Source: a virus
Length of the DNA: 64,000 nt
Direction: 5' to 3' (one strand)
IMG/VR virus record: IMGVR_UViG_3300043446_005775
Location: 13,256-77,255 of that record
The translations under genes and the position numbers were made by a program. Of the stretch, positions 1-24,557 are shown one piece after another. The notes beneath the pieces were generated by a model that was given only the letters and a program-made list of their open reading frames with translations, did no database searches and was not told the DNA's origin. How positions within the stretch are numbered: the first letter of the stretch is position 1; each line of letters begins with the position of its first letter.

Positions 1-3000
1 ATCATTGACACGAGCAATGATTCACAAGAATCAGTATCTTATGCAACGCACGACAGGACTGTGTACAGGGTTTTTTCGTTTGAAGACAAGGGAAAAAGGA
101 AGGTCGTCATCCGGGAACCCATTATTCCGGGAGCGATAGGAGGCACTCCTGCCGGGGAAGAGGCTAGCGTGGATACAGCTTCTGGAGTCCTTTTCCCAGC
201 AGATATCAATCAGGACTTTTCAACGCTTTGGCAATTTCTTGACTCTCGTGACAACAAGAGAAGCGCAAAGTCAGAATCAATTCTCAGTGCATATGTAAAC
301 CGGGTCACAGAAATCGCCAAGGCAAGGTGGGAAGAACATATTGCCGGAAAAGAAGCAATCGCGGGTCGGCCTCCCATAGTCCAGGCAAGAGAAGGCCTTG
401 TTGGAATAACTCGTGAATCAGGACTCAGTGGAGAGGCACATGCAGATGCCGCTCTGGGCTCCGAAGACAGGAGGGGGCCAGATGACGAGGTCGCAGTTGC
501 CAGGCGAATTGCCACACAAGCAGGCGAAGTCGCCCATCAAGCAAACCTTAGGGAAATTGAAAACAAAGTTCCTTCAACAATGGATGATGATCATTTAGAT
601 GCAATTATTCCAGAATTGGCAGGCAGTTACACGCCGACGGCCCCGGTCATCGAGACTGATTGGCAAGCAGAAGCCGCATCGCTGTCGGCGGACAAAATCC
701 AATCTGCCGCGGATGCAGTGGAGCGCGATCTGCTTAAGTCGCAATCTGCTGTTTCCTCAAGCGAGATGAATGACACTTTTGAAGATGTGAATATTCCGGG
801 ATTGAAAAAACGCAGTGAATTTCCGTCACTTGCTGCGTATTTCCAGGCGGTGAACAAGCGGTACCGGCAAAGCAAAGACTCCGTAGAATTGTTCAATTTG
901 AATATTCGTGTTTACAAGGCATTTATTGCCCAGAAAAATAGTCGAAGAATTGAAGCGTTCAGAAGATCAAAATTAAGCTTGCATCCGCTTGTGGAAGACA
1001 GTGCAAGAAGCGGAACGGCACGATTGCCTAATGTTTCAGCCACGCTGATGCAAATGGCTTCTTCCTCTTCAAAGGCAGACAATCTCGAAAGCATTGCCAT
1101 GGCCATTCCAGCAGTGGCAACCGCGGGAATAATTGACGTTCTTCGCACACAGCAAGGCTCTTCCGACTTTCAAAAAGAGGCTGGCGCGGCAATTGCAAAA
1201 ACCCTGACCGATTCTCTCGAATCCGCATTGAATCAGCGCCTGAGAGATGAGCATCTGATTGACAGGGCAGGGTTTGATACGGCGTTTCCTCAAATCGGCC
1301 TCAACAATTCCTCATCGGTGTTGTCAGGGTTCTTGAATGATACGCTGAAAGCCGCGATACCGCAGGATTCACTGGGTTTCAATGAGGAGTTCCGCACAAG
1401 GTTCTCAGATGAATATGAGAACAGGCTGAGAATCTCGCAGGCAGCTCTCTTGTCTGGCAATAAAGAAGCGATACAGGAAGCAAAAGATTCCATCTCTGAA
1501 TTTGGGAAAAAAGAATTCGTCATGACCAAGGACGAAGAAAAGACTCTTAAAGCCATGCGAAAAAAGGGAAATTCCTTTATCTCCGATTGCATAGCATGGA
1601 TGGAAAAAATTGGAAGAAGTGGCAAGCAATTCAAGCTACCGGGAAAAGACCCCGCAATTGTTTTATCGGAAGCGGCAGAGAAAGGCGACTTCGTAACAGT
1701 GTTGCGAGTCTTGGCGATGAATCTTGCCCCAAAGGAATATGTCACTCTCAACCGCGATGACAACGCAAGAATGCCTATTGAGAAGCCATCAGAACAAGAT
1801 CTGGCTGCAGCGAGGGAAAGAATTTTCCGCCTCGTTCATGATCTTTTGTCAAGTGATCAGTATGCAGACGATGTCAGAAAAGAAGTGCTTGCCACAGAGA
1901 ATTATAATCTTTATCTACACACAGCAACTGGTCTTTCAGAGCTTGTTGGAATCGGTTTCTCAATGGCTGACAGGAAGACAAAGGAATGGCACTTTAGTCC
2001 TATCAGGTACATGGCAAACGCCGACATTATGAAGTTTGCAAATGAAAGAGCAAAAGTTGCCATTGAAAATGGCCTGCGGGGTGACTACCTCTCCAATTAC
2101 GTACGCAATGCTCTTGCCAAGGAGTTCGATGGCGATCCACGCATCAGGGTGCCGGTGCTCCCCTCGCGTCGCCTAAACTCGGAGGGTAAGATCCACGTGG
2201 CTCTCTCTGTAGGAAATGAGGCGAAATCGATCAATATCGAATCCTATGCTATGCAGGCAATACGGACAGTGCAGAAAGGGATTCAGGATCAATTAGAGAG
2301 GCACCTCAAGTCAGGAAAGTCACGTGAGACATTCAAGGGGGATTATTCCAATCTTGGCTTGGATGAACCAAGAGCTCCGACAGGGTTGTTGCCAAAGCGA
2401 TTGCCAGATGATGCCCCTGAGAAATTGAGGGATGACTGGCAGCATGCGGCTGGGTTGTACAAGAAAAGCCAACGCGCGGAATATTACAAATCGCTTGACG
2501 CCAAAAGGCGAGCCGCGCTTGACATGTGCATTGGCAAAAACCCGGTGATTGATTCAGGTGATTTTGACTGGGGAAATGATGATCACAAGGCTTTGCTTGG
2601 AGATTGGCTATTTTCAAGATATCCGCAAGAGTCCTTGGGGAAACTCACGACGAGAAAAACGCAACAAGTCCCCGTTGCCGCGTACATGCAGCAATTTCTC
2701 CAGAATCCTGCTGATGGAGAATTGATCAGAAAGCTGGAGGCAGCCCTTGGAAACAAGCCTGTTGTCGTTGACAGGAAAACATTTGATCCCGCATTGAAGG
2801 CGAAGGCAACTCCTGAGATGCTGCTGGCAACCAATCCTCTTTGGTCCGCGTTTCTTTCGGCCAATGACCCGGAAAAATTGATCAATCATCCGTTTCAGCT
2901 TTCATTTTTCCATTCCATTTTTCAATCGGGATTGAAAAAAATAGACGGACAATCATTGAAACCTGTTGAGGGAAGAACCAAATCAGCATTTGATGAGGAA

Positions 3001-6000
3001 GTAAATCGCATTGCAGGCTGGATAGAAGGCCAGCTGGGAAGAAGAGCAATTGAAGCGGGAGCTGCAGACAAGAAAATCAAAGCATCTGAAACTGTGTCCT
3101 TTTGGTCACAAAATGCTGTCTTGGCAGAACACACCGCGGCTTTCCTTTCTGCTGGAAACGAAGAATTAATCAAAGAGATAGAGAGGCAATTGCTTCAAAA
3201 CCCTGGCGACCAGAAATTGCAGGACGATTTGAATGAACTGCAAATAATCCAGGAAGATTCCGAGAAGGATCCAAGCAGAAAATCGATTAGATTCACACGT
3301 CGGCAGAGGGATGCCAACAACAACGACCTGGGAGCAGTTGCTCCAGATATGTTAGCCGATTATGTCCAGGCAAAATCCCGAATCATGCGCGACTACTCGC
3401 CTGTGAATGATTTGTCAACCCATCAGCCAATTCCCGTGGGAATTCTTGCGGGTATCGTCAAGGACTCTTTGCTGAGGTCACGCAATCCATCCGATTTCAT
3501 TCTTGACTTGTCTCCGGCAATACCAAGAGATTCACAGGCAACTTCACTGGCAGCCATCGATTCCGTTGCCGCAGATGTGCAAAAAGAAATAGATCAGAGA
3601 AAATCACAACAGGAGCTTGAGCAATCAGCAATGGGGCCAGCGAGCCTTGTTCCAGTAACCGAATCGTCAGTGCGGGAAATCATGAGTGAATCAAAGAAAA
3701 AGGGAATCATTCCAATAGGAAGATCAAGTCATGCATATCCGGCAACGCTCAGGGGGAATCATGGAAAATCCAAGGAATTCCCTGTGATCTATACGTATGG
3801 ATTCAGCGAATTGGTGGAATCTCCCAGCATTGTGCATTTGATTAGCGATCCCATTGCTGCTTCCGCAGGAGCTCAGTACGGAGCAATTAGTTCATTGGGG
3901 GATGTGCAAAATGCAATAAGGACTGTCAGCGACTCACTCGGATCAATCGATGGCATGGATAGCGAAGCGCCGCTTCTTACCAGAAAACAGCACATTGACA
4001 TGCATGTCACTACGTGGATGCAAAAATTGCAGACTTCTGAAAATTTCGGAGAGATTGACAACATAATCAGGGAACTGAACAAAGTTGACCAAAACCAACA
4101 ACTTGACCTTTCTGACATGTATAGTTCTGATTGGACAAAGAAATTTTCAAAACTGCTAGAGAGATATTGCCAATCCAACGCCATAGCAATGATCACACCG
4201 GCTGATTCCGCTTACCCGCCATACCTGCTCAAGAGCCCCGGACGAAGACAATCCGGTGATGACGATCCTACTCCCTACACGCCCTCCGTGTTGTTTGTGA
4301 AAGGAAATCCACGCGCATTCCAACAAGTGCGCGATAATTCCGAGAGGGTTGTAACATGCATTGGCGTTGGAGAAGGAAAGACACACGGCGAGGATGTAGA
4401 GCACGGAAATGCCGTTTCTCAAAAAGCATGCGAAGTTGTCACGCGCCTTTCTTCGGCGTTCAAAGACAAGTCGTGGACTATTGTTACTTCATTGACTGGA
4501 GGCACAAACGATGCCATTCTTCAAACTGCGTTGCGATGGCAAATGCCAACAATTATCGTCGCTCCCTTTGGATTCAACACTTCTGCCGAATTGGGCTCAT
4601 TTGGCCCAAGATTCAAGGATGCAAAGAGCAGGCTAAATGATGCATTGGACAAAAACGCCGTTGTCATGACGGAATGCTTGCCTGGAATGGGAATGCAGAG
4701 ACCAAAAAATGGGGCAGGCAGGGATTCTGTTCGCGAACATCAGCGCTTGCTCGCGGAACTGTCTTCTGCGACGATTGTCATTTCGGCGACTGGCACTCGC
4801 AATTGGGTTCAGACAGAAGGACAACGGAAAGGAATAAGTCCTGAGTATCTCGCCGCGATGATTGACGGATCGAGCGTGTCGAAGGTATTGAACGCCAAAG
4901 TTGAGGATTCCATCCCGATCTATGTTGCGCAACAGGCCGCAAGGCAAAAGAGGGCAGTGTTCGTCTTGCGTCCTGACACAATTGTCAACCATGAAGCAGC
5001 CATGGCGGAAGGAAGAATGAGCGGAAATGTGCAGCTTACGTCATCTTCGATCAGGAATGTCTTTTTCCTTGATACCGATGATCCAAAAAAGCAGCTTGAA
5101 AAATACATCAGCAAAGCGCCAATAGACATACCTCCTGTGAGCAAAGCGCAATCCGCCGTGGAAGACATTCTGAATGTGGCGCAAATGAGCAGGCCGCAAG
5201 GCATGACCGACGAGGAATTTCTCGGCACATTGTCAAATGTCTTGGTGGCGAAGAATGCAAGGATGATTGCCACTACGCGTCATTGGCTATCAGGAATCAA
5301 AGCGCAAAGGAATCCTGACGGAAGCCCTGTTTCGGTATTGATTGATTCTCCAGATACCGACGATGCAAGCTTGCGAAATCTGCTTCTTGCAAAGGAAATG
5401 GGAGTTCACACAGTCGTTGTTCCCAGTCAAGCCATCTATTCGAGAACAAGGATGCCGGATGAATACGAAATCACAGAAGAAGGCCCTGTGCTGAAGAAAT
5501 TGAATTCACTCGATGACTGGGCTCCTCTCAAAAACAACGACAGGCTTTCTGGAACAAGCCTCATAGAACTGACATTTCGCGCAGACAACACGTCATCGGA
5601 TCCGTATAGATTGGCTTTTGAGACGCCGGAGCTGGCGTTTGCGGCGACGAGGTTTTCAACAAGGGCTGACAGGGAGGCGCTTGCCGGACTATCCAATGAT
5701 GACAGGCACTACAGGCAGAAATTAGCCAAGATACGAAAGGCAGAGCGAGAAAACAAGCTTTCCGCCATTCGTCCCGAGCAAGCAATCAAGGAAATGTATG
5801 AAATCCTGAGGCAAAAATTCAACTCGGAAACCTACAGGACCATATTGATGCATACTGGAACCGCAGATATTGTGCACGGAAGCGATGGGGAAGATTTCTG
5901 GGGAGTTCCAAATTTCATGTCTTTATCAAAAACATCATTGATCAAGACTGGCATTGGGAACAACATGCTTGGAAAACTCCTGATGCATATCCGTTCTTTC

Positions 6001-9000
6001 ATTAGTGCCTATCCTTCGAGCCGCCTTCCCAAGACTCTTTCTGATGATTCCTGCCAAAGAATGCTGGATGGCGGAAGAAAACGAGACGAAACGATGGCGT
6101 GGCATGAGGCGCTTGGCCTCATGGGGCTTTCAGACAGGGACATCACCCTTGCTCCAACCGTGCAAAGAGCCGTGGAGCCATTGAAGACCAAGGAGTTGCG
6201 CATAGGAATCACCGGCTCACGGGATCTCGATGGCTTGCTTACCGAAGACATGGTCAGGCATGCCCTTGAGCGGTCCATCAAGATCGCTCGCCCCGGCCCG
6301 AAGACCATTTCACCGCAGGCCGGGGCAGATCCCGCAAAGAAGCGCTCTGCGTGGGAAATGGCACATGGCATTGACATAGCGAATCCGGGACAAGCCAGTG
6401 ATGCATTGTACACGGCTCATTCCATCGTTCATGGCGGAGCTGCTGGAGTCGATTCCGTTGCTGCTGCATATTTTCGCGATCATAATTTTACGAATGTCAC
6501 AGCAATTCCCTATGAAGAACTCTCGACAAAGGAGGATAATTTTCACAGGAAAGATCGCACTGCAGGACACAGGAGAAACACCAAGATCGTTGCAGATTGT
6601 GATGTATTGGTTGCAATCTGGGATGGGAAAAGTGCTGGCACATTAGACGCAATCATGAAAGGCATACGAATGCAAAAACGCATGCTGATCTGGACGCCGG
6701 ATGGCAAAGGCGGGTTGGCCCTTCAGAAAATAAATCCGGCCGAAAAAGGAACCATAACATTGTCAACGCCCTTTTCCCCTGTTGTCAAGGAAGGTTCCGC
6801 AATACATGATTATCATCATGCTGGAGCAAATGTTGCCAGCTCGGAAGCACGTGCGTTTGCAGAAAAACTTAGAACCGCATCGCTTGTCTTGGGCCTGCAT
6901 CATTCTTCCCGGTACGCTCAAGGATTGTATAGGGATTCAAGGACGATTGGCGCACAAAAACCGATCATCGTTCTTGGCGGAGGCCAATCGCATCTGTCGG
7001 AAGGTTCTGCGGACGACCAGAAACGTGCAGACAGTGAGCTCCTCGGGTTCTTCCCTGCAGACCAGAAGTTGACGGAAGGACTCATTTACAAGGGTCGCCT
7101 CAATGGGGAATGGAATAATTATCATCATGTTTCTGATCCGGACAGTTATGCCGCTCTTGGATATCAATCAACAAGGAATGCAGACTCATTTGCAGCAAGC
7201 AATACTGCTGCGTCAAGGGCATTGCAGGAAGTGATTAACGCCAGAACACGTTCCGGATATTCAAATCTCACAAGATCCCAGTTGGCAGCAGGCTTGGGCG
7301 CACTCTTGGGGCTTGGTAGCGCAACAGCGTCGCAAGAGGATGTTAAATCGCATAGAATTAGCGATATCGACACGCAGATACTTGAGACAAGGCTTAATCC
7401 GCTTCTTGACGACGCCGAAAAACTGGAGAAGGTCAGAAGCCTTGAGGAAGAAAAGCAGAAAATTATCAATGAAGTGCCATCTCGGACGGTAGCATTGGCA
7501 AAAAGCGAGGATGGTCAGCGCGGATTGCAAGCCATGGGACATGGCGCACATCGATCCATTCCTTATGCGGAAGAGGTCGCGCCATCGAATCATCAGTATG
7601 CCGAAACCGCAGTCGTCTCAAGCGAAGCAATCCCGCACATATATGCATCAATAAGTATTTCCATGGCTCCCAGCAAGAAGAAAACAAACGTTATCGATTC
7701 AACCATTCATGTGATGCTTTATCACAGGGATGGACAAGATGATCCCATACCAGTGCAAAGCATGGTATACCACATTCCTGATTCTCCACTTGTAACCACG
7801 CTTGCGCAACCATCGGACGAGAGCGCCCATACCCGGGGAACAAAATCCGGAAGGTGGCTGGATGGATATGGCAACTACCGGCGGATCATTCGCATGCTTT
7901 CCGGAGATTTGGCAAAGGATTTGCTGGCCAGATATCATGCTGGATCAATTCACCAGGAAGTGAGGGCAATCACGAGAACCCGGGATGTTGCCAACAACAT
8001 TCCGGGAAGAGGTGTCGGCATTCCATTGCAAATTGCGCCGCAATCGGATGCGTTAACGAGTCTGCAAAGGCAAACATCGGCCACACCATCCGTGCATGCG
8101 TTTGATCCGGATTCAGTAGACTTGAAAAGAGTGAGCAATGGAGATCAATTATCAAAAGATGCGGTTGACAGAGGGAGGCCCAGAATAATAAGCCAGGAGC
8201 AGATAAATGCCTATGTCGGGCAATGCAGGGCACGGCGAAGCTGGCCTCCCGTTTCAGAAGCAAGGATTTCTCAACGGCAACGCGAAGACACGAGAGCAAG
8301 CACATTCAATCCCCGGTATCAATTCACCCCCAATGTGAGGAAAGGGGACAAATTATCTCCATTATTTACCTCGTGGACCGTCCTTGGTGGAGAGACGACA
8401 AAATTTGAGGCAAAACGTGTCGCGCAGGACAGTCTTCGTTCAGCGTACGGACAATCTCAAGCAACACTTGCGGAAAGATCAGCCATTCAAAATGCTGATG
8501 GAACATTCAAGGTCAGTGCGAACCCCCAGAAACCGACAACCACTGCACTTGCACTATTTGGTCCGGCAACACGGATGGTCAGGGGTGCCCCCATTGATCG
8601 AGAGACTGGAGGGAACGAGCCTTACAACATCAATATCCTTGCCCTGCTTGGCGGAAGTCCGTTACATGTGTCCCCAGGAACTGGCCATTCGCCAATAGTT
8701 CCCAATGATGCCGTTCATCCCGAATATGCGTATGTCGCCGGAGGGAACCTTTCATCAGCAATCACCGACTTGTTGAAAATTCCCGAGCAGGGGAAGATCA
8801 CCCTTGACGGATACTCGGATGCAGCATTATGTGTCGACCTTCAGCAGTATTTGCAACTTTCCCCAAAAGAGTCCTTGACACGCAAGCAACTGGAGCCTAT
8901 CGTTGAGGATCTTCTCCGTCGACGCATCGGAGGAAGAAAGGCGCTGGATCAATTGGATTACGGACGACCAGTTGATAACCTAGCCTTGGTTGCCGGAGTG

Positions 9001-12000
9001 GGCGCTCCCATGTCAATACCCGCGCAATGGGACCGGTTGCGAGATTCATTGTTCTATCTTGGAAAAAGAACGGCATTTTCTGAAGATGCTCCACGCGCAG
9101 TGATCGATGAGAATCTTCAGCAAGCAATGAGAAAATCAAGATTGAAGGTTGCAACAGGCTTGGAATTGCTTGCCTCGCTGGTTGTTGAAAGGGCCAATGG
9201 GAAAAGTGCATCACCGTTGGGCGCGGGAAAGACGACGACAATGCAAGACTACCTGCGTCGTTTCCTTCCTCCGGGCGCCACAACTTTCGACGATGATGCG
9301 CTCGCACGAAAAAACCTTGATGAGCATATTCAGGAGACCATGAAAATGTTCGTGTTCCTGAGAAGTATCGACTCCGGATCCGATGCTTCTCAGATGCGAA
9401 TATTCCAGCAAGGCAGCGGAAAAACCGCAGTTGAGCCGCTTGTGAAAAACCTCAGGAACGCGCTCTCGATCACATCAACGGACAATAGCAGAAAAATCAT
9501 CTCGCAAATGGGATATCTTGCCTCAGCAATGGATGTCATGAATTCAATGAACGTGGACTTCAATCACGAGGACAAGATTTCACCAGAATCAACCATAGCA
9601 AAGATCTTTTCCCCATCATCGGCAAGCTCATCTGGAAAAACAAAGCTAATCATTGTTCCCGGATCAGTTTGGCAAGCAAAAACTATTCCAGGAGCAAATT
9701 TCTATGATCAAGGCAGGAATGAATTGTCTCCTCCGGAAAGAATGAATCTCCTCGCAAACGTGATTGTTTGCTCAAGGAACGAGGAAATAAACAAGATCTT
9801 CCTTGGCATTACCGCAGGAACTGACAAGCAAACCCAGGCAGGATCCTTGAGCGAAATTCTTGACAAAGGCCAGAAAGGCGTTAGCGTCCCTGAAGGAGAT
9901 GACCATTATGTCTACATAGGATGTCCATTAGGAGAGGATATCGGAGAAAACGTGTTGCATTTCGATGAAACAAAATCTGCGGAGTACAAGGCAAGCGTAG
10001 CGTTGGCCATGGCTCACGCGGCAAACATCAAGGCTGGGCGCAAGGCTGGCGTGGGCATCAACCTTGCAAGCGACGACGACAGGTTCAGGACCCTCCAGCA
10101 AAACAATGTTGATAAATTCAACCGGATTGCCAGCATGGCGCTGAATGCCGCAAATGGTACACTTTCCGCAGATCATGCCATACGAGAGCGCCAGGTCCGC
10201 GCTCTCGTATGGGCCACACTGTATGTTGATGGGGTGCATGACGAAAAACGCAAGCGGCAGACCGCGGAACCTGACAGCCCCGTGCTGGTATACGCTCCTG
10301 AAGAATCCCTGATCGGCCGCTATGTCGGAGAAGACGGGAACGGTATCATCACTCCTGTCGAGCGCACCAACTGGATGGAAAGCCTGTCTGATCTTCGCAA
10401 TATCGTATTGGGGAACATGGGCATCAAGAGGCCAGCGACAGTCATCAGCTTGTCAACCATTGCTCCTCCTGCTCCCGAAGTGGAAGAGACGCCTGCGGGA
10501 ACAATCGCTGCACCGGCCTCCGTTGGTCAGCGAAGCAGAAAGGAGGAACTTATCAGGGAGGTTGATGATCTCAAGGCAGAATTGGGAGATCAGGCTCCGA
10601 AACCAGTAACATTTGGCGGACGTGCCGGAGACATGGGGGTCGGGGTCAATTCCCTGCAAGCGGAATTGACGCGAAGACTTGTCGCCGCGCAAGACGAGCT
10701 TTCCACGCTTGTGATGGACGGCCTTTCCTCAGAAGGAGAAAAAAAAGCCGCCGATGCAAAGAGGGAAGAATTCGAAGAGGCGAGGAAAGCATACGAGCAA
10801 GCCGCCGAGGCAAGGAGGGAGTCTTCGGCCCCCGAGATGGTAATCACTGGTTTCCGGTCTGAATTGTCGAACTGGTCTGTCGAGAATCCGGACATATTCC
10901 CAACATTCACGTATGTGAACGACAAGGGGGAACAAAAGCCTTTTATTGTTCCCCACGGTGCTGCACAATTTGAACTTTTTTTCGGTTCCGGAGCATTTAG
11001 TGTTTCACCGGAAAACATTGAAACCAGAATGCGTGAAGGAATGGAATTTGTGGAGGCTGCAAAAAGACTGATAAGGGAGCATTCTCAATTGCCAAGAGGC
11101 AACAACAGCGACGAAAGCAATGAATTTGCCCGGATGCTCGCCAAGAATTCATTTCGCATTCCAGGAAGCAGCACACAGCAATTCGTTAATTACCAGACCT
11201 ATCTGGAGGCGATTGCGGGTTGGCAATCTGCAGCAAAAGCGGACACAGTGGAAAACCGACGATCATACATGAGGATGATCCGGGATCTTGCCATAATCGA
11301 AGAACAATCCGCGCAACAGAAAATGATCGCTGCATATGGAGATCATTCAGAGCCAGCAATAACGAGAGCCTTGGAAGATCGTCAGAAATACATTGATGCT
11401 GCATCAGCGCTGAATGCCGTCATTGATTCCATGAGCGCCTCGCAAAAACTCATTTGCAGGCAACCGGAAAAAATTCCATTGGCAGACCAATCATCAGCTG
11501 TCCCGGTTGAGCTCATGCAATCAAAGGAGTACGATCATCTCAAGGATGTCGCGAAGGAACTCAAGGACAAGATGGGTGGGACAACATTCCGGTTGAATCC
11601 GTATGAGTTGAATCTGATCCTCACGCAACATGACCCGGCAAATACGATTGGCAACGTCCTGTTGCGAGGTACCCTGTTTTCAAAAGGCGCTCCGTTGATT
11701 CATTATTTGCAGTCTGTATCCCTGGAGAGCGATGTACTCTATTCGCCTCTCGCACAAGCATTCAGGATTTCAAGATACTTCACCGTGAACGATCTGATTA
11801 CCGTATTGACTGACTTACGAAAGGCCCTAACTGCCGAAAAGAAGAAAAGCGATCCCGATTCCGAAAGAATTGACAAGCTGACATCACAAATTCACCGGGC
11901 GACCGGAATGCTCAACGCCGCAGCACATCCATGTGACGACAATGACAAGGAGACACTGTTTGGCGCGTTTGACAGATTCTATGCGGAGGCGTCCAGAGCG

Positions 12001-12468
12001 TTTGCCCTGCTGCTTGGAAACCGGAGCAGGAAACTTGAAGACATGGAAAACATATGGAAAAATAGCCAGGGAAATCCGATAGGCACATTGCGTTTCTGGC
12101 GTGACCAGTTCATGTTCGTGAACGACAGTGAACGCATTTCCGGCCAAATAGAGGTTGAAACCAACGGCAACGTTCGTCCAGCTCCTTCATACGAGTGGAC
12201 ACAGGCGAAAGAGTGGGTTCCCCTCAAGAAAACATCCTTTCAGGAATGGATACGAAGAATATCCCCTGATATTCAAAGTCAGAACACTACTGATCAGCGC
12301 ATTCAGGACTTCAACTTGCTCCGAGGAAAATTCCCAGATATTGCAAAATCACTTTCTTCGATATACAAAATGCCGTATTTCGCAAAGTCCCGGCGATTGC
12401 CCAAGGTCCGAAAGAAACGCACAGGTCTCCTCCTTCGTTCTTATGATAAAATAACATACAGAGCATGA
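1..12468 (+). CDS. Giant polyvalent protein (>4,150 aa, probably 5'-truncated) with several SLOG domains (DprA/Smf-like and YspA-like) and a NADAR domain; candidate virion-packaged protein
   Basis: Frame 1 has no stop from base 1 (IIDTSNDSQESV...), so the GTG at 61 may not be the true start. DprA-like signature AMITPADSAYPPYL...PSVLFVKGN...IVTSLTGGTN...TIIV...VMTECLPG...HQRLLAELSSATIVISA at ~4180-4970. NADAR signature FETPELAFAATRF...MYEILRQKF...LMHTG...EDFWG...GNNMLGKLLMHIR at ~5610-6000. YspA-SLOG signature IGITGSRD...IVHGGAAGVDS...AGHRRNTKIVADCDVLVAIWDGKSAGT at 6196-6693. Confidence 0.85.
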   Translation: MIDTSNDSQESVSYATHDRTVYRVFSFEDKGKRKVVIREPIIPGAIGGTPAGEEASVDTASGVLFPADINQDFSTLWQFLDSRDNKRSAKSESILSAYVNRVTEIAKARWEEHIAGKEAIAGRPPIVQAREGLVGITRESGLSGEAHADAALGSEDRRGPDDEVAVARRIATQAGEVAHQANLREIENKVPSTMDDDHLDAIIPELAGSYTPTAPVIETDWQAEAASLSADKIQSAADAVERDLLKSQSAVSSSEMNDTFEDVNIPGLKKRSEFPSLAAYFQAVNKRYRQSKDSVELFNLNIRVYKAFIAQKNSRRIEAFRRSKLSLHPLVEDSARSGTARLPNVSATLMQMASSSSKADNLESIAMAIPAVATAGIIDVLRTQQGSSDFQKEAGAAIAKTLTDSLESALNQRLRDEHLIDRAGFDTAFPQIGLNNSSSVLSGFLNDTLKAAIPQDSLGFNEEFRTRFSDEYENRLRISQAALLSGNKEAIQEAKDSISEFGKKEFVMTKDEEKTLKAMRKKGNSFISDCIAWMEKIGRSGKQFKLPGKDPAIVLSEAAEKGDFVTVLRVLAMNLAPKEYVTLNRDDNARMPIEKPSEQDLAAARERIFRLVHDLLSSDQYADDVRKEVLATENYNLYLHTATGLSELVGIGFSMADRKTKEWHFSPIRYMANADIMKFANERAKVAIENGLRGDYLSNYVRNALAKEFDGDPRIRVPVLPSRRLNSEGKIHVALSVGNEAKSINIESYAMQAIRTVQKGIQDQLERHLKSGKSRETFKGDYSNLGLDEPRAPTGLLPKRLPDDAPEKLRDDWQHAAGLYKKSQRAEYYKSLDAKRRAALDMCIGKNPVIDSGDFDWGNDDHKALLGDWLFSRYPQESLGKLTTRKTQQVPVAAYMQQFLQNPADGELIRKLEAALGNKPVVVDRKTFDPALKAKATPEMLLATNPLWSAFLSANDPEKLINHPFQLSFFHSIFQSGLKKIDGQSLKPVEGRTKSAFDEEVNRIAGWIEGQLGRRAIEAGAADKKIKASETVSFWSQNAVLAEHTAAFLSAGNEELIKEIERQLLQNPGDQKLQDDLNELQIIQEDSEKDPSRKSIRFTRRQRDANNNDLGAVAPDMLADYVQAKSRIMRDYSPVNDLSTHQPIPVGILAGIVKDSLLRSRNPSDFILDLSPAIPRDSQATSLAAIDSVAADVQKEIDQRKSQQELEQSAMGPASLVPVTESSVREIMSESKKKGIIPIGRSSHAYPATLRGNHGKSKEFPVIYTYGFSELVESPSIVHLISDPIAASAGAQYGAISSLGDVQNAIRTVSDSLGSIDGMDSEAPLLTRKQHIDMHVTTWMQKLQTSENFGEIDNIIRELNKVDQNQQLDLSDMYSSDWTKKFSKLLERYCQSNAIAMITPADSAYPPYLLKSPGRRQSGDDDPTPYTPSVLFVKGNPRAFQQVRDNSERVVTCIGVGEGKTHGEDVEHGNAVSQKACEVVTRLSSAFKDKSWTIVTSLTGGTNDAILQTALRWQMPTIIVAPFGFNTSAELGSFGPRFKDAKSRLNDALDKNAVVMTECLPGMGMQRPKNGAGRDSVREHQRLLAELSSATIVISATGTRNWVQTEGQRKGISPEYLAAMIDGSSVSKVLNAKVEDSIPIYVAQQAARQKRAVFVLRPDTIVNHEAAMAEGRMSGNVQLTSSSIRNVFFLDTDDPKKQLEKYISKAPIDIPPVSKAQSAVEDILNVAQMSRPQGMTDEEFLGTLSNVLVAKNARMIATTRHWLSGIKAQRNPDGSPVSVLIDSPDTDDASLRNLLLAKEMGVHTVVVPSQAIYSRTRMPDEYEITEEGPVLKKLNSLDDWAPLKNNDRLSGTSLIELTFRADNTSSDPYRLAFETPELAFAATRFSTRADREALAGLSNDDRHYRQKLAKIRKAERENKLSAIRPEQAIKEMYEILRQKFNSETYRTILMHTGTADIVHGSDGEDFWGVPNFMSLSKTSLIKTGIGNNMLGKLLMHIRSFISAYPSSRLPKTLSDDSCQRMLDGGRKRDETMAWHEALGLMGLSDRDITLAPTVQRAVEPLKTKELRIGITGSRDLDGLLTEDMVRHALERSIKIARPGPKTISPQAGADPAKKRSAWEMAHGIDIANPGQASDALYTAHSIVHGGAAGVDSVAAAYFRDHNFTNVTAIPYEELSTKEDNFHRKDRTAGHRRNTKIVADCDVLVAIWDGKSAGTLDAIMKGIRMQKRMLIWTPDGKGGLALQKINPAEKGTITLSTPFSPVVKEGSAIHDYHHAGANVASSEARAFAEKLRTASLVLGLHHSSRYAQGLYRDSRTIGAQKPIIVLGGGQSHLSEGSADDQKRADSELLGFFPADQKLTEGLIYKGRLNGEWNNYHHVSDPDSYAALGYQSTRNADSFAASNTAASRALQEVINARTRSGYSNLTRSQLAAGLGALLGLGSATASQEDVKSHRISDIDTQILETRLNPLLDDAEKLEKVRSLEEEKQKIINEVPSRTVALAKSEDGQRGLQAMGHGAHRSIPYAEEVAPSNHQYAETAVVSSEAIPHIYASISISMAPSKKKTNVIDSTIHVMLYHRDGQDDPIPVQSMVYHIPDSPLVTTLAQPSDESAHTRGTKSGRWLDGYGNYRRIIRMLSGDLAKDLLARYHAGSIHQEVRAITRTRDVANNIPGRGVGIPLQIAPQSDALTSLQRQTSATPSVHAFDPDSVDLKRVSNGDQLSKDAVDRGRPRIISQEQINAYVGQCRARRSWPPVSEARISQRQREDTRASTFNPRYQFTPNVRKGDKLSPLFTSWTVLGGETTKFEAKRVAQDSLRSAYGQSQATLAERSAIQNADGTFKVSANPQKPTTTALALFGPATRMVRGAPIDRETGGNEPYNINILALLGGSPLHVSPGTGHSPIVPNDAVHPEYAYVAGGNLSSAITDLLKIPEQGKITLDGYSDAALCVDLQQYLQLSPKESLTRKQLEPIVEDLLRRRIGGRKALDQLDYGRPVDNLALVAGVGAPMSIPAQWDRLRDSLFYLGKRTAFSEDAPRAVIDENLQQAMRKSRLKVATGLELLASLVVERANGKSASPLGAGKTTTMQDYLRRFLPPGATTFDDDALARKNLDEHIQETMKMFVFLRSIDSGSDASQMRIFQQGSGKTAVEPLVKNLRNALSITSTDNSRKIISQMGYLASAMDVMNSMNVDFNHEDKISPESTIAKIFSPSSASSSGKTKLIIVPGSVWQAKTIPGANFYDQGRNELSPPERMNLLANVIVCSRNEEINKIFLGITAGTDKQTQAGSLSEILDKGQKGVSVPEGDDHYVYIGCPLGEDIGENVLHFDETKSAEYKASVALAMAHAANIKAGRKAGVGINLASDDDRFRTLQQNNVDKFNRIASMALNAANGTLSADHAIRERQVRALVWATLYVDGVHDEKRKRQTAEPDSPVLVYAPEESLIGRYVGEDGNGIITPVERTNWMESLSDLRNIVLGNMGIKRPATVISLSTIAPPAPEVEETPAGTIAAPASVGQRSRKEELIREVDDLKAELGDQAPKPVTFGGRAGDMGVGVNSLQAELTRRLVAAQDELSTLVMDGLSSEGEKKAADAKREEFEEARKAYEQAAEARRESSAPEMVITGFRSELSNWSVENPDIFPTFTYVNDKGEQKPFIVPHGAAQFELFFGSGAFSVSPENIETRMREGMEFVEAAKRLIREHSQLPRGNNSDESNEFARMLAKNSFRIPGSSTQQFVNYQTYLEAIAGWQSAAKADTVENRRSYMRMIRDLAIIEEQSAQQKMIAAYGDHSEPAITRALEDRQKYIDAASALNAVIDSMSASQKLICRQPEKIPLADQSSAVPVELMQSKEYDHLKDVAKELKDKMGGTTFRLNPYELNLILTQHDPANTIGNVLLRGTLFSKGAPLIHYLQSVSLESDVLYSPLAQAFRISRYFTVNDLITVLTDLRKALTAEKKKSDPDSERIDKLTSQIHRATGMLNAAAHPCDDNDKETLFGAFDRFYAEASRAFALLLGNRSRKLEDMENIWKNSQGNPIGTLRFWRDQFMFVNDSERISGQIEVETNGNVRPAPSYEWTQAKEWVPLKKTSFQEWIRRISPDIQSQNTTDQRIQDFNLLRGKFPDIAKSLSSIYKMPYFAKSRRLPKVRKKRTGLLLRSYDKITYRA

Positions 12469-12471
12469 CAG

Positions 12472-13137
12472 ATGAGCAACAAGGAATTAGGCAGCAAAGG
12501 ATATGGTCACTGGATGTTCCTTCCCGGAGGGCAGCTGTCTTATGTGGGAGGAGCAATGACCGCACTTCACCCTCATTATGAAATCAGGAAGACAAAGCAC
12601 AAAGTCAAGAAAATAACAAAAGCCAAGATGCATGAACTGGAATCAAATCATGATCACCAGATGATCATCGTTGGGGACAGCAGCGTTCCTCACAATGATC
12701 TTCTCGGATTGACTGAGGCGATCAAGAAAATATTGCGATCAAGCATGAATATAAAAAGGGGATCTTCCAGGCATGGAGATGAGCATGACATGGCATTTGG
12801 AAGCACATCCATCTTTGCCAACACAAGCAGGGACGCAGACGGCATGAATTTCGTCATCATTGATGGAAACGGACACCCGGTCATGGTTACCAGGCGCGAA
12901 AGCAATCATCGTGATCCAACAGCTTCGTTGCTTAACGATGTTGCCGAATATCTTGCGCACGAACACCACAGACTTGCATGGCACATTCATGACAAGGATG
13001 ACAATGAGATAAACGGCGCACCTGATCACATATTGCCAAACATGTCTGCGTTGCGTTGCTGGCCAGTGCATGCGTCACAGATGATTTTTCGCTGTCCACC
13101 GCTGATCGACACGGATCCCGAGGAAAGCGATGAATAG
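12472..13137 (+). CDS. Hypothetical His-rich protein
   Basis: 221-aa ORF starting 3 bp after the giant gene's stop and overlapping the next start; TGaTAAAAT box at 12444-12452; no recognised domain. Confidence 0.7.
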   Translation: MSNKELGSKGYGHWMFLPGGQLSYVGGAMTALHPHYEIRKTKHKVKKITKAKMHELESNHDHQMIIVGDSSVPHNDLLGLTEAIKKILRSSMNIKRGSSRHGDEHDMAFGSTSIFANTSRDADGMNFVIIDGNGHPVMVTRRESNHRDPTASLLNDVAEYLAHEHHRLAWHIHDKDDNEINGAPDHILPNMSALRCWPVHASQMIFRCPPLIDTDPEESDE

Positions 13138-16100
13138 GATAGTAAAATCGATCATTGAAATAAGTGATCTTCCTGATGATGAAGAGAGTGATTCGTCAAA
13201 AAAACAACCGGCAAGCGACTATCATCATCTCTGGTCCAAGAATACTGCAGCGTTCATGGGCATACCGATTGACGAGATATTGCCAGATTGCGTCTCGACA
13301 AGCGACAAGATAGCCGCCATGGATCGCTCGTTCATGAACGAGTTTCATGGGATTCTCAGCCAATCAAGGCAGTCATTCCAGATGATTGATTTGCTCGGGA
13401 AAAAAATCCTTTCCTATTCCAAACTATACTGCTATGCCGGGAAGAAGATACTTCGCGCGGACGACATGCGCATGATGATCGATGTGTTTGCCCGGTCATT
13501 TGGCCCAGAAGAGATGAAGACCTTGGCAAAGCTGATGCGCACGACCTACAAGGGCATCAAGAGGGAAATGGACAGCCTTCGCGTGTCCAAAAAGCTTGAT
13601 TTCCCGTATCGTCATCCTTCGCTGTCCATTCATGAGGATTCCATATATCCGCACGGACAAGGATCCTACGGCCAGTCGCATTCGTGGGTCTACGGAAAAC
13701 AATCCTATGTGGAATATACGAATATTATGGCAAAGCCTGAAGGCAAGGCAATACATCCATTCCTGCTCATAGAAATGCATCTGTCCAAGACTGGCAACAA
13801 TGGGCTTTCTGTGGAAAGCGGCATCATCGGCCAATCGTTCTCGATTGACGGATCAGGAAATATCGAGAAAAACACAAGCAACACGTTATCCTATGCATGG
13901 CAGGATTATCTTGAGGAACACATGAAGTCGACATCCTCATGGGCGCAAAGCACGAGCAAGGATGGAATCAAGAAAGCCTCGATAGAAATTGCGCACCCAA
14001 AAGTGGGAATACCATGGTTTTCCGCGGTTGAAACTTCCATGGACAGCCAATTGATGTTTGATACCGAGAAAAACATGCAGATATTCTTGGGCAAGAGAAA
14101 AAAGATCGGGCATCTGACGTATGCCGACACCGCGAACGATGATGCTGAAAGCCGGTCAAGGCGCCTGCTGGAGTTTCTTGGCAGGTACATCGCATCGGAA
14201 ATAGTCGCGTATGGCTATGCTTCCCACGCCGGAATGTCCACCCCTCATTGTTGCGAAGTCCCACCAAACGGTAACCCGTGGTTGTCGTTCCGGGTGTCCG
14301 GAAGAATAAGCTCGGTTCCCTCAATCAGTACTGGGCAGTCTGCATATCCGGACAACTACTTGAGCCTGCCGAATGATTCCGAAGACCAAACCAATGGTTA
14401 TTCGCCCATGCGGGTTGACTGGACACAATTTCAAAAGGAAACGTATCACATCGTGGTGCAACCGAGCGTGACAAGATTCATGCATGACGCATTCAATTAT
14501 CATGTCGATGTGCGAATCTTGCCGAACGGGTCCGGCGCTGCTGTCGTCCTGTTTTCTGATTCCTTCAATTTCATTGACGAAATGCGCGTCACCATGCCCG
14601 ATCCGGATCGCGCAACCGTTATTGGCCAGGTGGCGTTGGCAAATGCGGTTGGAATCCGGAACTCGCCAACCTACGATGATCTTGGATGCAAGGTGCTCCC
14701 GGTTCCCATCGCTCTCTCAGAACAACGGACTGCATCAAGATCCTCATTTTCCGTTGGCGCCGAACTCTCCGTTTTTGAATCCATGCCTCGTGATTTCATC
14801 TCCTATCATATCAATTCCGCATCAACCGTCATGTACAAGACTTCCGACATGTCGCAGCTGCGCGGAAACATCACGAACGCATTGAAGATGTTCAATACGA
14901 GAACCATTGACCAGAATAATCTGAGCAGCTTTATTTCCTGGAATGATTTCGGTTCGTATTGCGGAGAGCATTTCATTGAAAATTTCAATGATTCATTCAT
15001 GAAATCTGCGCATGCCTATTTTACTCCTGCCTCCTTGCAAAGTCTCCTGAAATCAATGCAGCAGTATTTTTCCGCGCATCAATTGAATGATTTTGGAATA
15101 CATGACATTCCGGAGGTAAAGGAAAAAAACGAGAATACTTTTGTAAGCCTTTCACCAAAGACGTTGCTGAAGACATCATCACTGAGCAATGGACTGTCCT
15201 ATGCTGTCTATCTTGTGCGCCATGTCCCGCATCAATCCGTGACCGAGTCCATGATCCCGATTGAAAAAACGATGTTCAATTCACTGTTCTCCTTCTACAT
15301 GACATGTGTGAATCCCAATGGACATGAAATTTGCGTCTATCAGCCATCCTTCAACATGAAGGCTGGAAATTATCCGCGCTATGCCTCTCTCGCAGACATT
15401 GTATGCGGGTATTTCCCGGACTTCATTTGCTGGATGACAAATGAGGGGTTGCGACTGCACAAGTCAAGCCAGATCTCCTCCGCTTCCTATGCAAGAATTG
15501 CAGAGATGCATAAGGTTGATCCAGCATCCGTTGCGAAGGATATTGAGATGCCCTTTTCCCCTGATGCATCCATGATCAGCGGCCAGAAGGAGATAGTCAG
15601 AAGATGGATTACTTATCATTTCCCGTCATTGGCAATCATTAACCAAGGCGGACCTCGCAAGGGAGGCTCCATAGTGGATCATCTCATGGAATCGGCGCTT
15701 GCCGTAGACACGCCAAGGGGGAAGGACAACTACAGCCCTTCGGAAAGCCTGAATGATGAAAATGTTGCACGGCTGCTGAGACTTGCAATGCTCCTCCACG
15801 ATGTTGGGAGAAGCTTTCCGAGCGAAGGCGGTGTTGGCCCGGTGGAAAAGGGGCATGCGCACTATTCCGCGGCGCTTGCCAGAACCATCCTTTCCCAGTT
15901 CTATCTCAAGGAACGGGAAATCGCGGCAATAGAGAAGTGGATCTATCATCATGACATCTTCGAAAAAGCAGTCATGGGCGCATATGGAACGATTGATGAG
16001 GCATCCCTTCATATCGCAAAAATTGCCGAGACCATAGACGACGCAGAGATTCTTTATCATGTCTATCGTTGCGACACGGATTTCCTCGGCAATTACCAGA

Positions 16101-23307: not shown

Positions 23308-23958
23308 ATGGCATCGCTAGAACACAACATGTCGAAGTTGAAGGTCAAGGAAAAGGCAGAGAAGCTGGGCGTTGACCGGGCTGTGGCGTCCCATAGCGGC
23401 GGCCGTCGTTCTTCCAGGAAATCCTTTCAGGCAGTGCTGTATCCAAAAACTGCATCAAGGAACACGACCATTGAGCAGCGGGTGCGAAGCCTGCAGAAAT
23501 CCGTGCAGAATACGGCCGGAATAGGGCGCATCATGGAGAACATCGCCGACATCGTCGGTTCTTCGTTCAACTCTCCGATGCCGATGCCCATGACAAGTGA
23601 TGGGTCTCCTGATTGGGACGGCCCGAATGAGAACAGTTTTGTCATGATGCCAATCAACAACAAGAAGTCGAGCTTGCATGGAAGATTCGTGATTCTTCAG
23701 AAGCTGCCAAATGGAATGTACAAGATTGCTGAAAAGCCCTCTGGCAAGAAGAAGAAGGCCAAGGATGACGATGACGATGATGATCGTGACAATCGTGACA
23801 ATGATGAGGGAAAAGTCAGCAAGGGGATCATCACGGGTTCCCGGCAACAACGACGTGACAAGGGTGCCACACATCACTGGGCGCCGAGGGGTGTTTCCTC
23901 CCGCAGCCCAAGAACGGCAGGAAGGGGCCCCAAGGGGTCGAAGAGTGGGGCGCTCTGA
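23308..23958 (+). CDS. Hypothetical basic/acidic low-complexity protein, possibly head-associated
   Basis: ATG at 23308 with AGGAG; TATAAT at 23285-23290; SRKSF/LQKSV motifs; poly-D tract. Confidence 0.7.
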   Translation: MASLEHNMSKLKVKEKAEKLGVDRAVASHSGGRRSSRKSFQAVLYPKTASRNTTIEQRVRSLQKSVQNTAGIGRIMENIADIVGSSFNSPMPMPMTSDGSPDWDGPNENSFVMMPINNKKSSLHGRFVILQKLPNGMYKIAEKPSGKKKKAKDDDDDDDRDNRDNDEGKVSKGIITGSRQQRRDKGATHHWAPRGVSSRSPRTAGRGPKGSKSGAL

Positions 23959-24557
23959 TGCGCACCAGCAGGAAAGTCGGAGCGAGGAATGCCCCCGCCC
24001 TGACGCCGACTGGCTTGCGCAAATCATCTTCGGGAAATGGCGGCCCCAATGCCGAGAAAAGTCACGGCATCCCAACTGCGCTCCGCAGGGAAAAGTCTGG
24101 CCCAGCAGCGCAAAAGGCGACCAATATCGAAAACCAATTTCGATATGCGCTGCTTAGGAAAGGATTGGACTTCATCGAGCAAGCGAACATTGGCCCGTGG
24201 TCCTGCGATTTTCTCCTGCCCGATCACAAGATTGTCATCGAAGCTGATGGTGAATACTGGCATTCGATTCCGAAAACCATCATGAAGGACAGGAGGAAAG
24301 ATCTCTGGTTACGATCAAAAGGCTATTCGGTCTTGCACTTTGAAGGAAAACGCATATCTGCAGATCCGGATGGCTGCATAAGCAAAGTGATACAATTGAT
24401 AGAAAAGAATAAACTTTCCCTTGTGATTGAAGAAGAAGAAGAAGAAGAATTCATGGAAAAGCCGGAAATAGCCATAGCAAAGGAAACCGACGACGATGCA
24501 GAATACGAAGCTTGGCTCTCTTCCGGATCTGTCGGATCACGAGGAAGCCTTGGTTAA
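23958..24557 (+). CDS. Vsr/DUF559-family PD-(D/E)XK endonuclease
   Basis: TNIE...EQANIGPWSCDFLL...IVIEADGEYWH...KDRRKDLWLRSKGYSVLHF; TGATG coupling to the upstream gene; acidic C-terminal tail. Confidence 0.85.
   Translation: MRTSRKVGARNAPALTPTGLRKSSSGNGGPNAEKSHGIPTALRREKSGPAAQKATNIENQFRYALLRKGLDFIEQANIGPWSCDFLLPDHKIVIEADGEYWHSIPKTIMKDRRKDLWLRSKGYSVLHFEGKRISADPDGCISKVIQLIEKNKLSLVIEEEEEEEFMEKPEIAIAKETDDDAEYEAWLSSGSVGSRGSLG

What the first reader, a model, noticed from the sequence alone, without database searches (positions are those of the whole stretch)
3690..10240. Array of intact and eroded SLOG domains inside one giant protein
Seen: a near-complete DprA-type Rossmann/SLOG domain (4180-4970) whose usual GSR and RNR motifs are replaced (GVG, HQR), and an intact YspA-type SLOG (6196-6693, GITGSRD/HGGAAGVD/RRN/WDGKSAGT). 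Further fragments look SLOG-like: IIPIGRSSHAYPATL...PVIYTYG (~3690-3800), LLLAKEMGVHTVVVP (~5380-5425), KPIIVLGGG (~6960) and MAHAANIKAG...RERQVRALV (~10010-10210). Inference: serial duplication has produced a multivalent scaffold that binds nucleotides or ssDNA. It could act as a sponge for immune second messengers or as a DprA-like chaperone for incoming DNA. The fragment calls are tentative.
Basis: partly seen in the sequence, partly recalled or inferred. Interest (0 to 1): 0.72.

Follow-up and report, generated by a model that had tools for sequence, protein, structure and literature searches.

The report
Giant phage protein, two SLOG domains
A 4,486-residue protein of an uncultured large tailed phage carries a DprA-like domain, a NADAR ADP-ribose-removing domain and one intact YspA-type SLOG domain. 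It is a multi-domain, probably anti-defence, protein, not an array of duplicated SLOG domains.

Summary
The two main calls hold. A divergent DprA-type domain lies at nt 4168-4980 and an intact YspA/YAcAr SLOG domain at nt 6190-6765. Both sit in one giant ORF: 4486 aa in full, with its start 993 nt upstream of the window.

It gives the best clue to function.

Of the four "fragments":
- Fragment 1 is a real ~28-residue repeat of the DprA lead-in motif, but no Rossmann fold follows it.
- Fragment 2 is a confidently modelled, highly conserved beta-alpha-beta unit just before NADAR, with only marginal likeness to SLOG.
- Fragment 3 is not conserved and not modelled.
- Fragment 4 lies in a strongly conserved domain of unknown fold with no SLOG signal. 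Its structure prediction failed.

Serial duplication is not supported. BLASTP finds no internal repeat. The YAcAr domain is about 40% identical to small stand-alone phage proteins, and NADAR-YAcAr occurs as a two-domain phage protein in the same order.

Best reading: a rare polyvalent phage protein, encoded beside the head genes of a large myovirus, whose DprA-like/NADAR/SLOG cassette counters NAD+/ADP-ribose-based host immunity. This is a new architecture of a known kind. Other first-reader notes of this scan on the same genome already list the SLOG-NADAR-SLOG cassette.

The parts
1..12468 (+). Giant ORF. It is 5'-open in the window. The full protein is 4486 aa and starts 993 nt upstream (G000:C1:12263).
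   Evidence: Full-length or near full-length homologues of 4241 and 4272 aa, and long fragments, are aligned over the whole length.
3688..3786 (+). Fragment 1: a ~28-33 residue repeat of the DprA-domain lead-in (hydrophobic strand, then YP..L). It is a vestige, not a folded SLOG domain.
   Evidence: hhalign score 26 against the DprA lead-in of the same family, with background median 10.2 and next best 14.2. 0 of 60 shuffles reach it. No Pfam hit. pLDDT below 50 and no secondary structure.
4168..4980 (+). Divergent DprA-like (SLOG-clan) Rossmann-type domain. The GSR, SGxAxGID and RNR motifs are replaced.
   Evidence: PF02481 at 27.8 bits here, and 45.1, 100.6 and 101.6 bits in homologues. TIGR00732 hit. 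Profile against PDB sequences: DprA 3uqz 1.1e-5, ShosA 0.012. Foldseek: ShosA 1.8e-6, DprA 2e-5. Alternating strands and helices at pLDDT 45-83. Motifs.
5332..5421 (+). Fragment 2: a conserved strand-helix-strand unit, followed by the invariant T(R/Q/K)MPDEY, just N-terminal to NADAR. Its kinship is uncertain.
   Evidence: AF2 elements E559-563, H569-580, E584-588 at pLDDT ~77-89. Invariant columns in four homologues. Marginal SLOG profile match, E 0.0025-0.01.
5455..6015 (+). NADAR domain (ADP-ribosyl N-glycohydrolase superfamily). The catalytic Glu and the C-terminal [DE]xxWG and GxNxLGxxLMxxR motifs are kept. SNF and the Lys after the Glu are not kept.
   Evidence: PF08719 at 40.4 bits, above the 35.1 cut-off, at aa 1860-2000. 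53.4 and 43.2 bits in homologues. phrog_1017. TIGR02464 and NF053876. YbiA 2b3w at 0.0021. Alignment. pLDDT 67-95.
6190..6765 (+). Intact YspA/YAcAr-type SLOG domain, with a ~45-residue insertion after the first strand-helix.
6952..6978 (+). Fragment 3 (KPIIVLGGG): not a supported feature.
   Evidence: The GGG is not conserved in P0004 or P0005. pLDDT below 50. hhalign probability at most 0.9, and 4 of 60 shuffles reach the score.
9508..10245 (+). Strongly conserved domain of unknown fold that contains fragment 4. Invariant VPGSVWQA, HYV.IG.P.G, HAANI and R.RQ.RALVW.
   Evidence: 45-53% identity to the most distant homologues over these windows. Invariant columns. No hit in Pfam, PHROGs, PDB sequences or the ESM Atlas. 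No SLOG signal. AF2 failed, pLDDT 33.6.

Best explanation
The region is the central part of one 4486-aa multi-domain ('polyvalent') protein of an uncultured large myovirus. The gene lies in a same-strand block of giant genes just upstream of the head protease, major capsid and tail sheath genes.

The recognisable core, in order, is:
1. a 28-residue vestigial DprA lead-in;
2. a divergent DprA-like domain;
3. a helical linker plus a conserved beta-alpha-beta unit;
4. a NADAR domain;
5. an intact YAcAr SLOG domain.

The rest is about 1,550 residues on the N-terminal side and about 1,900 on the C-terminal side. It is family-specific and includes one very conserved unknown domain.

The cassette was assembled by domain accretion. 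The NADAR-YAcAr pair looks captured as a unit. The DprA-like domain comes from a different SLOG family.

Inferred mechanism: the protein is made late and probably acts at or soon after genome entry. NADAR would remove ADP-ribose from modified bases of the phage DNA, or cleave soluble ADP-ribose derivatives. The YAcAr SLOG would bind or cleave NAD+-derived nucleotides. The DprA-like domain has lost the canonical phosphate-binding motifs and would serve as a DNA- or protein-binding tether.

Shown: the domain identities, their order, their conservation and the gene neighbourhood. Inferred: packaging or injection, the substrates, and the anti-defence role.
For: Domain calls.

Phage context: prohead protease at 27724, major head protein at 30286, tail sheath at 34514, all on the + strand. 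The neighbouring giants carry UvrD, HD and pentapeptide-repeat domains. The same gene order (giant, giant, ~215 aa, ~1315 aa, ~220 aa, large ORF) recurs in the related contig L003.

Accretion rather than duplication: the best small hits are YAcAr proteins at 35-48% identity and NADAR-YAcAr fusions (P0006 in the same order; P0008, P0018 and P0150 in other orders). There is no internal BLASTP repeat.

Literature:
- Phage SLOG domains are mostly of the YpsA-like clade, are fused or linked to NADAR or Macro domains, and are predicted to counter ADP-ribose-derived immune signals. Some such genes lie among virion genes (PMC9503650).
- Polyvalent virion-delivered proteins are described in PMC5512222.
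- Phage NADARs remove ADP-ribose from DNA and defeat DarTG1 (PMC11257639, PMC11125620).
- The NADAR catalytic Glu and C-terminal motifs are conserved in all homologues.
Against: - There is no direct evidence of packaging or injection. No MuF, portal, peptidase or ART hallmark of described polyvalent proteins was found.
- The NADAR SNF motif and the Lys after the catalytic Glu are not conserved, so hydrolase activity is uncertain.
- The DprA-like domain lacks the canonical motifs.
- About 75% of the protein has no assignable function.
- Among 57 viral loci with a YAcAr gene, none had NADAR fused or within 3 kb. The pairing is therefore a minority arrangement. My NADAR HMM came from six sequences and may miss some.
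- The DprA-like part of the AF2 model is only moderately confident, and the fold-search lists were filled by the YAcAr domain.
Confidence: 0.55

Rival explanations
1. First reader's reading. Serial duplication produced an array of intact and eroded SLOG domains. The array forms a multivalent nucleotide- or ssDNA-binding scaffold that acts as a sponge for immune messengers or as a DprA-like chaperone.
Against: The two domains belong to different families, and each is closer to outside relatives than to the other. There are no internal BLASTP repeats. Fragments 3 and 4 give no signal. Fragments 1 and 3 are unstructured in the model. Only one domain keeps the ligand-site motifs. The NADAR enzyme domain between them is not accounted for.
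Confidence: 0.07
2. Recombination or DNA-protection factor. The DprA-like domain binds incoming or replicating phage ssDNA and loads a recombinase. NADAR and SLOG are accessory nucleotide-damage-control domains. The upstream UvrD-containing giant would be part of the same DNA-handling machinery.
For: DprA and ShosA are the best fold and sequence matches for the first domain. Homologue P0005 keeps SGMAKGID and RNR. Jumbo phages often carry DprA, proposed there as an ssDNA-binding protein (PMC7824862). A UvrD helicase sits in the adjacent giant. ShosA is linked to DNA repair (PMC11961720, abstract listed).
Against: The GSR motif is absent in all family members, and SGxAxGID and RNR are lost in this protein and in P0004. 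No DprA SAM or winged-helix partner domains were found. The gene lies with head and tail genes, not with replication genes.
Confidence: 0.15
3. Mainly a structural or ejection protein, such as an internal head or DNA-ejection component. The recognisable domains would be decayed passengers without enzymatic roles.
For: The size, the position next to morphogenesis genes, the long regions without any family match, and the decayed motifs in the DprA-like domain and partly in NADAR.
Against: The YAcAr motifs are fully intact and invariant across homologues as distant as 29-38% overall identity. The NADAR Glu and C-terminal motifs are invariant. Such conservation indicates selection on ligand or catalytic sites.
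Confidence: 0.15

Closest known systems
Two-domain phage NADAR-YAcAr (YspA/DUF2493) proteins, e.g. P0006 (275 aa). This is the SLOG-NADAR association described by Iyer et al. 2022 (PMC9503650).
   Same: The same two domains in the same order. The SLOG part is 41% identical. All YAcAr motifs are kept.
   Different: Here the pair is embedded in a 4486-aa chain. The SLOG domain carries a ~45-residue insertion. NADAR has an extra insert and has lost the SNF and Lys motifs. The usual viral form is a stand-alone protein of about 120-240 aa.
Phage NADAR anti-DarT factors (T4 gp30.3 / AdfN) and DarG1-type NADAR antitoxins.
   Same: NADAR superfamily match above the Pfam cut-off. The catalytic Glu and the C-terminal WG and LG..LM..R motifs are present.
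   Different: Not a stand-alone protein. The Lys that was mutated in AdfN (K43A, PMC11257639) is Arg or absent here. No activity data exist.
DprA/Smf and the DprA-like antitoxin ShosA.
   Same: Homologous Rossmann-type domain by HMM and by fold search.
   Different: GSR, SGxAxGID and RNR are replaced in this protein. No SAM or winged-helix partner domains. Embedded in a giant phage protein.
Polyvalent proteins of phages (Iyer et al. 2017, PMC5512222). The working analogue is phage P1 DarB, a ~2,255-aa head-packaged anti-restriction protein (P1 DarB from my own knowledge, not checked here).
   Same: Several conflict-type domains in one very large polypeptide, encoded beside virion genes.
   Different: None of the hallmark domains (MuF, zincin peptidase, ART, SNF2, methylase) was detected. 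SLOG does not occur in the text of that paper, and DprA is mentioned only once, in another context. Packaging is not shown.
ThsA SLOG domain (Thoeris) and phage messenger sponges.
   Different: It belongs to a different SLOG family (YAcAr). Only one intact copy is present, so there is no evidence of multivalent sponge behaviour.

Membership tests
DprA / DNA_processg_A (PF02481) | HMM match at or above the curated cut-off | tested here: inconclusive
   27.8 bits against a cut-off of 29.6 in this protein. The orthologous domain scores 45.1, 100.6 and 101.6 bits in P0004, P0005 and L003, so homology holds by transitivity.
DprA / DNA_processg_A (PF02481) | Conserved GSR, SGxAxGID and RNR motifs | tested here: not met
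   Here the motifs read GVG, TGGTND and HQR. P0005 keeps SGMAKGID and RNR but not GSR.
DprA / DNA_processg_A (PF02481) | Rossmann-type fold like solved DprA | tested here: inconclusive
   Foldseek: ShosA 1.8e-6, DprA 3uqz 2e-5. Alternating strands and helices at pLDDT 45-83. However, the VIA rows for DprA aligned to the YAcAr domain, and the domain was not folded alone.
DprA / DNA_processg_A (PF02481) | ssDNA binding and RecA loading | not testable with these tools
   Needs biochemistry.
YAcAr / YspA SLOG (PF10686) | Pfam HMM match at the cut-off | tested here: inconclusive
   14.4 bits against a cut-off of 28.2. Only the second half matches, because an insertion splits the domain.
YAcAr / YspA SLOG (PF10686) | Family motifs GSR, GGAxGxD, RN and WDGxSxGT | tested here: met
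   All lie on columns that are at least 90% invariant among 97 aligned sequences, and they are invariant in the giant homologues.
YAcAr / YspA SLOG (PF10686) | Profile-profile match to family members | tested here: met
   hhalign probability 99.9, E 1e-33 against 92 small family proteins, with the giants excluded from the profile. Sampled hits carry PF10686.
YAcAr / YspA SLOG (PF10686) | SLOG fold | tested here: met
NADAR (PF08719) | HMM match above the cut-off | tested here: met
   40.4 bits against 35.1. 53.4 and 43.2 bits in homologues.
NADAR (PF08719) | Catalytic residues | tested here: inconclusive
   The Glu, the acid of [DE]xxWG and GxNxLGxxLMxxR are conserved. SNF and the Lys after the Glu are not.
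Phage polyvalent proteins (Iyer 2017) | Two or more conflict-related domains in one polypeptide of a phage | tested here: met
   DprA-like, NADAR and YAcAr, in a viral contig with head and tail genes.
Phage polyvalent proteins (Iyer 2017) | Association with virion or packaging genes, and delivery with the DNA | tested here: inconclusive
   The gene is on the same strand, about 15 kb upstream of the prohead protease and capsid genes. Packaging itself cannot be tested here.
   Only two SLOG domains, from different families. One 28-residue lead-in repeat. No BLASTP self-hits. Fragments 3 and 4 show no signal. The fold of the domain containing fragment 4 remains unknown.

The most novel reading that the evidence does not exclude
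The giant protein travels with the phage genome. Its central cassette would be a DNA-tethered, pre-loaded eraser. The decayed DprA-like domain would hold it on the entering DNA. NADAR would strip base ADP-ribosylation (DarT-type attack). The YAcAr SLOG would capture or cleave NAD+-derived alarm nucleotides. One injected polypeptide would then neutralise several NAD+/ADP-ribose defences before any phage gene is expressed. The conserved unknown domain at nt 9508-10245 would add a further, undescribed activity.
Probability: 0.25. Interest if true: 0.65.

Novelty: new variant of a known kind. Interest (0 to 1): 0.4.

Why it matters
Phage NADARs are a proven counter to DarTG1, and phage SLOG-NADAR pairs have been predicted to counter ADP-ribose-based signalling. 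This protein places that pair, together with a DprA-like domain, inside a very rare giant protein family. I found about six sequences in three lineages among billions searched. The gene sits next to the head genes.

If the protein is delivered with the DNA, it would be an example of counter-defence enzymes that act before any phage transcription. It would also provide a DprA-derived domain with a new role. The family further carries a strongly conserved domain with no detectable relatives.

For the scan, the result corrects an attractive but unsupported 'array' reading.

Tried and rejected
- A word-index search with the DprA region alone (nt 4000-5100) found nothing in proteins of 200-640 aa.
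- tblastn of nt 4000-7000 against 50,697 phage records gave no match.
- The conserved domain with fragment 4 gave only a close fragment (P0154) in shorter proteins, nothing in the ESM Atlas, and a failed AF2 model at pLDDT 33.6. Its fold stays unknown. I did not run fold searches on that model.
- Four-sequence hhalign slices were too shallow even to link the two true SLOG domains. I replaced them with a 92-sequence YAcAr profile, using the DprA domain as positive control.
- The VIA-align lists for the 1200-residue model were filled by the YAcAr domain. No structural statement can therefore be made from them about NADAR, the beta-alpha-beta unit or the DprA-like domain. NADAR structures are absent from those lists, and this is not evidence against NADAR.
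- Scans for NADAR next to stand-alone viral YAcAr genes found none in 57 loci. This weakens the idea that the pairing is general.
- The scan of 185,579 prokaryote genomes found no giant homologue, so there is no host clue.
- I considered that the DprA-like domain mimics the ShosA antitoxin. By sequence it is closer to DprA (1.1e-5) than to ShosA (0.012), so I keep this only as a remote idea.

Full report
WHERE IT IS

The window is bases 13256-77255 of a 77,255-base IMG/VR virus record, estimated 47% complete. A single open frame runs from window base 1 to 12468 on the + strand. It is cut by the window edge. The full gene starts 993 nt upstream and encodes 4486 residues, P0002. Full-protein numbering equals window-translation numbering plus 331.

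Upstream lies another giant ORF of at least 3965 aa, with a UvrD-type helicase near its end. Downstream, all on the same strand, lie:
- ORFs of 221, 1312 (HD domain), 223 and 1848 aa (pentapeptide repeats);
- an HNH endonuclease;
- the prohead protease, the major head protein and the tail sheath.

The capsid protein resembles cultured SPO1-like and Bacteroides myoviruses only distantly. This is therefore the late, virion-gene side of an uncultured large myovirus.

THE PROTEIN FAMILY IS REAL BUT RARE

Searches of 5.8 billion clustered proteins and 1.84 billion representatives returned only the following:
- the protein itself;
- close fragments P0003 (80% identity) and P0154 (91%);
- P0004 (39%);
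- P0005 (33%, 4241 aa).

IMG/VR gave one further locus, L003, with a 4272-aa protein that is 76% identical to P0005. Its gene order is the same: giant, giant, ~215 aa, ~1316 aa, ~220 aa, large ORF. No homologue was found in 185,579 prokaryote genomes or in 50,697 phage records.

The homologues align along the whole length. Conservation is highest in the SLOG domain and in a C-terminal-half domain.

(a) DprA-type domain.
- Pfam PF02481 matches window-translation aa 1390-1597 at 27.8 bits, just under the cut-off. The orthologous segment scores 45.1 bits in P0004, 100.6 in P0005 and 101.6 in L003.
- A profile of the family finds S. pneumoniae DprA (1.1e-5) and ShosA (0.012) among PDB sequences.
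- Foldseek on the model ranks ShosA and DprA first.
- The model shows alternating strands and helices at moderate confidence.
- The reported motif losses are real. This protein has GVG, TGGTND and HQR where DprA has GSR, SGxAxGID and RNR. P0005 still has SGMAKGID and RNR.

(b) YspA/YAcAr SLOG.
- The profile-profile probability is 99.9, E 1e-33.
- The model core has pLDDT 92-95.
- The Pfam score is low (14.4 bits) because a ~45-residue insertion splits the domain.

Between the two SLOG domains lies a NADAR domain. Pfam gives 40.4 bits against a cut-off of 35.1 at aa 1860-2000. phrog_1017, TIGR02464, NF053876 and YbiA in the PDB also match.

In an alignment with small NADAR proteins, the catalytic Glu, the acid of [DE]xxWG and the GxNxLGxxLMxxR motif are conserved in all giants. 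The SNF motif and the Lys following the Glu are not.

THE FOUR FRAGMENTS

Windows of 180 residues from a six-sequence family alignment were compared with a 92-sequence YAcAr profile.
- The YAcAr domain scores 99.9%.
- The DprA-like domain, serving as cross-family positive control, scores 49% (E 1.8e-4) in correct register.
- Every other window scores below 5%, apart from the windows flanking the YAcAr domain itself.

Pfam scans of the isolated segments at E<=10 gave no SLOG-clan hit.

Fragment 1 (nt 3688-3786). It matches the lead-in of the family's own DprA-like domain (hydrophobic strand, then YP..L) over 28 columns.
- The score is 26, against a background median of 10.2, a 95th percentile of 13.8 and a next-best of 14.2 among 83 other windows.
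- 0 of 60 column shuffles reach it.
- It is therefore a real short internal repeat, consistent with a vestige of a second DprA-like unit.
- Nothing Rossmann-like follows it. The model is unstructured or helical there at low confidence, and Pfam does not see it even in the better-conserved L003.

Fragment 2 (nt 5332-5421). It is modelled confidently as strand-helix-strand. It is among the most conserved stretches of the family and ends in the invariant T(R/Q/K)MPDEY.
- Its likeness to the SLOG GGAxGxD-helix-strand unit is short and marginal: 18-35 columns, E 0.0025-0.01, probability 4-12%.
- Two strands cannot form a domain alone. It may be an N-terminal extension of NADAR or an interdomain element.

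Fragment 3. The GGG is not conserved, the region is not modelled, and it gives no signal.

Fragment 4. It lies in a 245-residue domain (nt 9508-10245) that is 45-53% identical even to the most distant homologues.
- It has no relatives outside the family and no SLOG signal.
- Structure prediction failed, so its fold is unknown.

DUPLICATION OR ACCRETION?

BLASTP of the protein against itself and against its giant neighbours finds no off-diagonal match at E<=1. The YAcAr domain is 35-48% identical to stand-alone proteins of about 120-140 aa. Its similarity to the DprA-like domain in the same chain is barely detectable (probability 36%).

The best small hit, P0006, is a 275-aa NADAR-YAcAr protein with the same domain order. 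It matches the query in both domains. Hence the NADAR-YAcAr pair was most likely captured as a unit, and the DprA-like domain has a separate origin. Apart from the 28-residue lead-in repeat, serial duplication is not supported.

HOW IT PROBABLY WORKS

Three points are established in the literature:
- Phage NADARs (T4 gp30.3/AdfN and others) remove ADP-ribose from DNA and overcome DarTG1 (PMC11257639, PMC11125620).
- Viral SLOG domains are mostly of the YpsA-like clade. They are often combined with NADAR or Macro domains and are predicted to bind or cleave ADP-ribose-derived immune signals. Some such genes lie among virion genes (PMC9503650).
- Large multi-domain 'polyvalent' phage proteins encoded with virion genes are predicted to be injected with the DNA (PMC5512222).

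From the anatomy and the neighbourhood I infer that this protein is such a polyvalent factor. Its cassette would counter NAD+/ADP-ribose-based defences, and the decayed DprA-like domain would act as a DNA or protein tether.

Nothing here shows packaging, substrates or activity. The loss of some NADAR motifs, and the absence of the usual polyvalent hallmark domains, are counter-indications. In 57 viral loci with stand-alone YAcAr genes I found no adjacent NADAR, so the pairing is a minority arrangement.

NOVELTY

The domain families, the SLOG-NADAR association, phage DprA and the concept of polyvalent proteins are all published. Three things are new:
- the architecture, DprA-like/NADAR/YAcAr inside a chain of ~4,200-4,500 aa;
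- the very small family that carries it;
- a conserved domain without relatives.

Other first-reader notes of this scan on the same genome already describe the SLOG-NADAR-SLOG cassette and the NADAR domain. My tests agree with those notes. They do not support the 'array' title of the present finding.

LIMITS
- Only two structure jobs were available, and the second failed.
- The fold-search lists for the long model were dominated by one domain.

Noticed in passing
L002:2-11899 (G000:C1, upstream of the window): A second giant ORF of at least 3965 aa, 5'-open at the contig end, lies directly upstream. It has a UvrD/REP helicase at aa ~2985-3766 (PF00580 at 141 bits, UvrD_C at 101 bits).
   Followed up: partly
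window 13130-17068 and 17743-23289: The 1312-aa ORF has an HD domain (23.5 bits, just above the cut-off). The 1848-aa ORF has pentapeptide repeats at aa ~1390-1470 (126.6 bits). Both are conserved in position in the related contig L003.
   Followed up: partly
window 9508-10245: This is the second most conserved part of the giant protein, after the SLOG domain. Invariant motifs are VPGSVWQA, HYV.IG.P.G, HAANI and R.RQ.RALVW. It has no relatives outside the family and no usable structure model.
   Followed up: partly
window 12260-12465, 23080-23286; L002:11690-11896: The C-termini of three giants are basic and carry hydrophobic-x-K-S motifs (for example IAKSL, FAKSR; ILKSS, FSKSS; LKKSF), as other first-reader notes say. 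I only read the tails. No alignment or test of a shared signal was made, and the L003 tails differ in sequence.
   Followed up: partly
L003:1-31973 (IMGVR_UViG_3300023184_000082): The related contig keeps the same order of giant and small ORFs. The block therefore appears to be inherited as a conserved module.
   Followed up: partly
window 23958-24557: An HNH endonuclease-like ORF (phrog_559, 4e-11) lies between the giant-gene block and the head genes.
   Followed up: no
L004-L061: In 57 viral contigs the YAcAr SLOG is a small stand-alone ORF (median 128 codons stop-to-stop, maximum 243). A few contigs carry a second, more distant copy (L034, L036, L052).
   Followed up: partly
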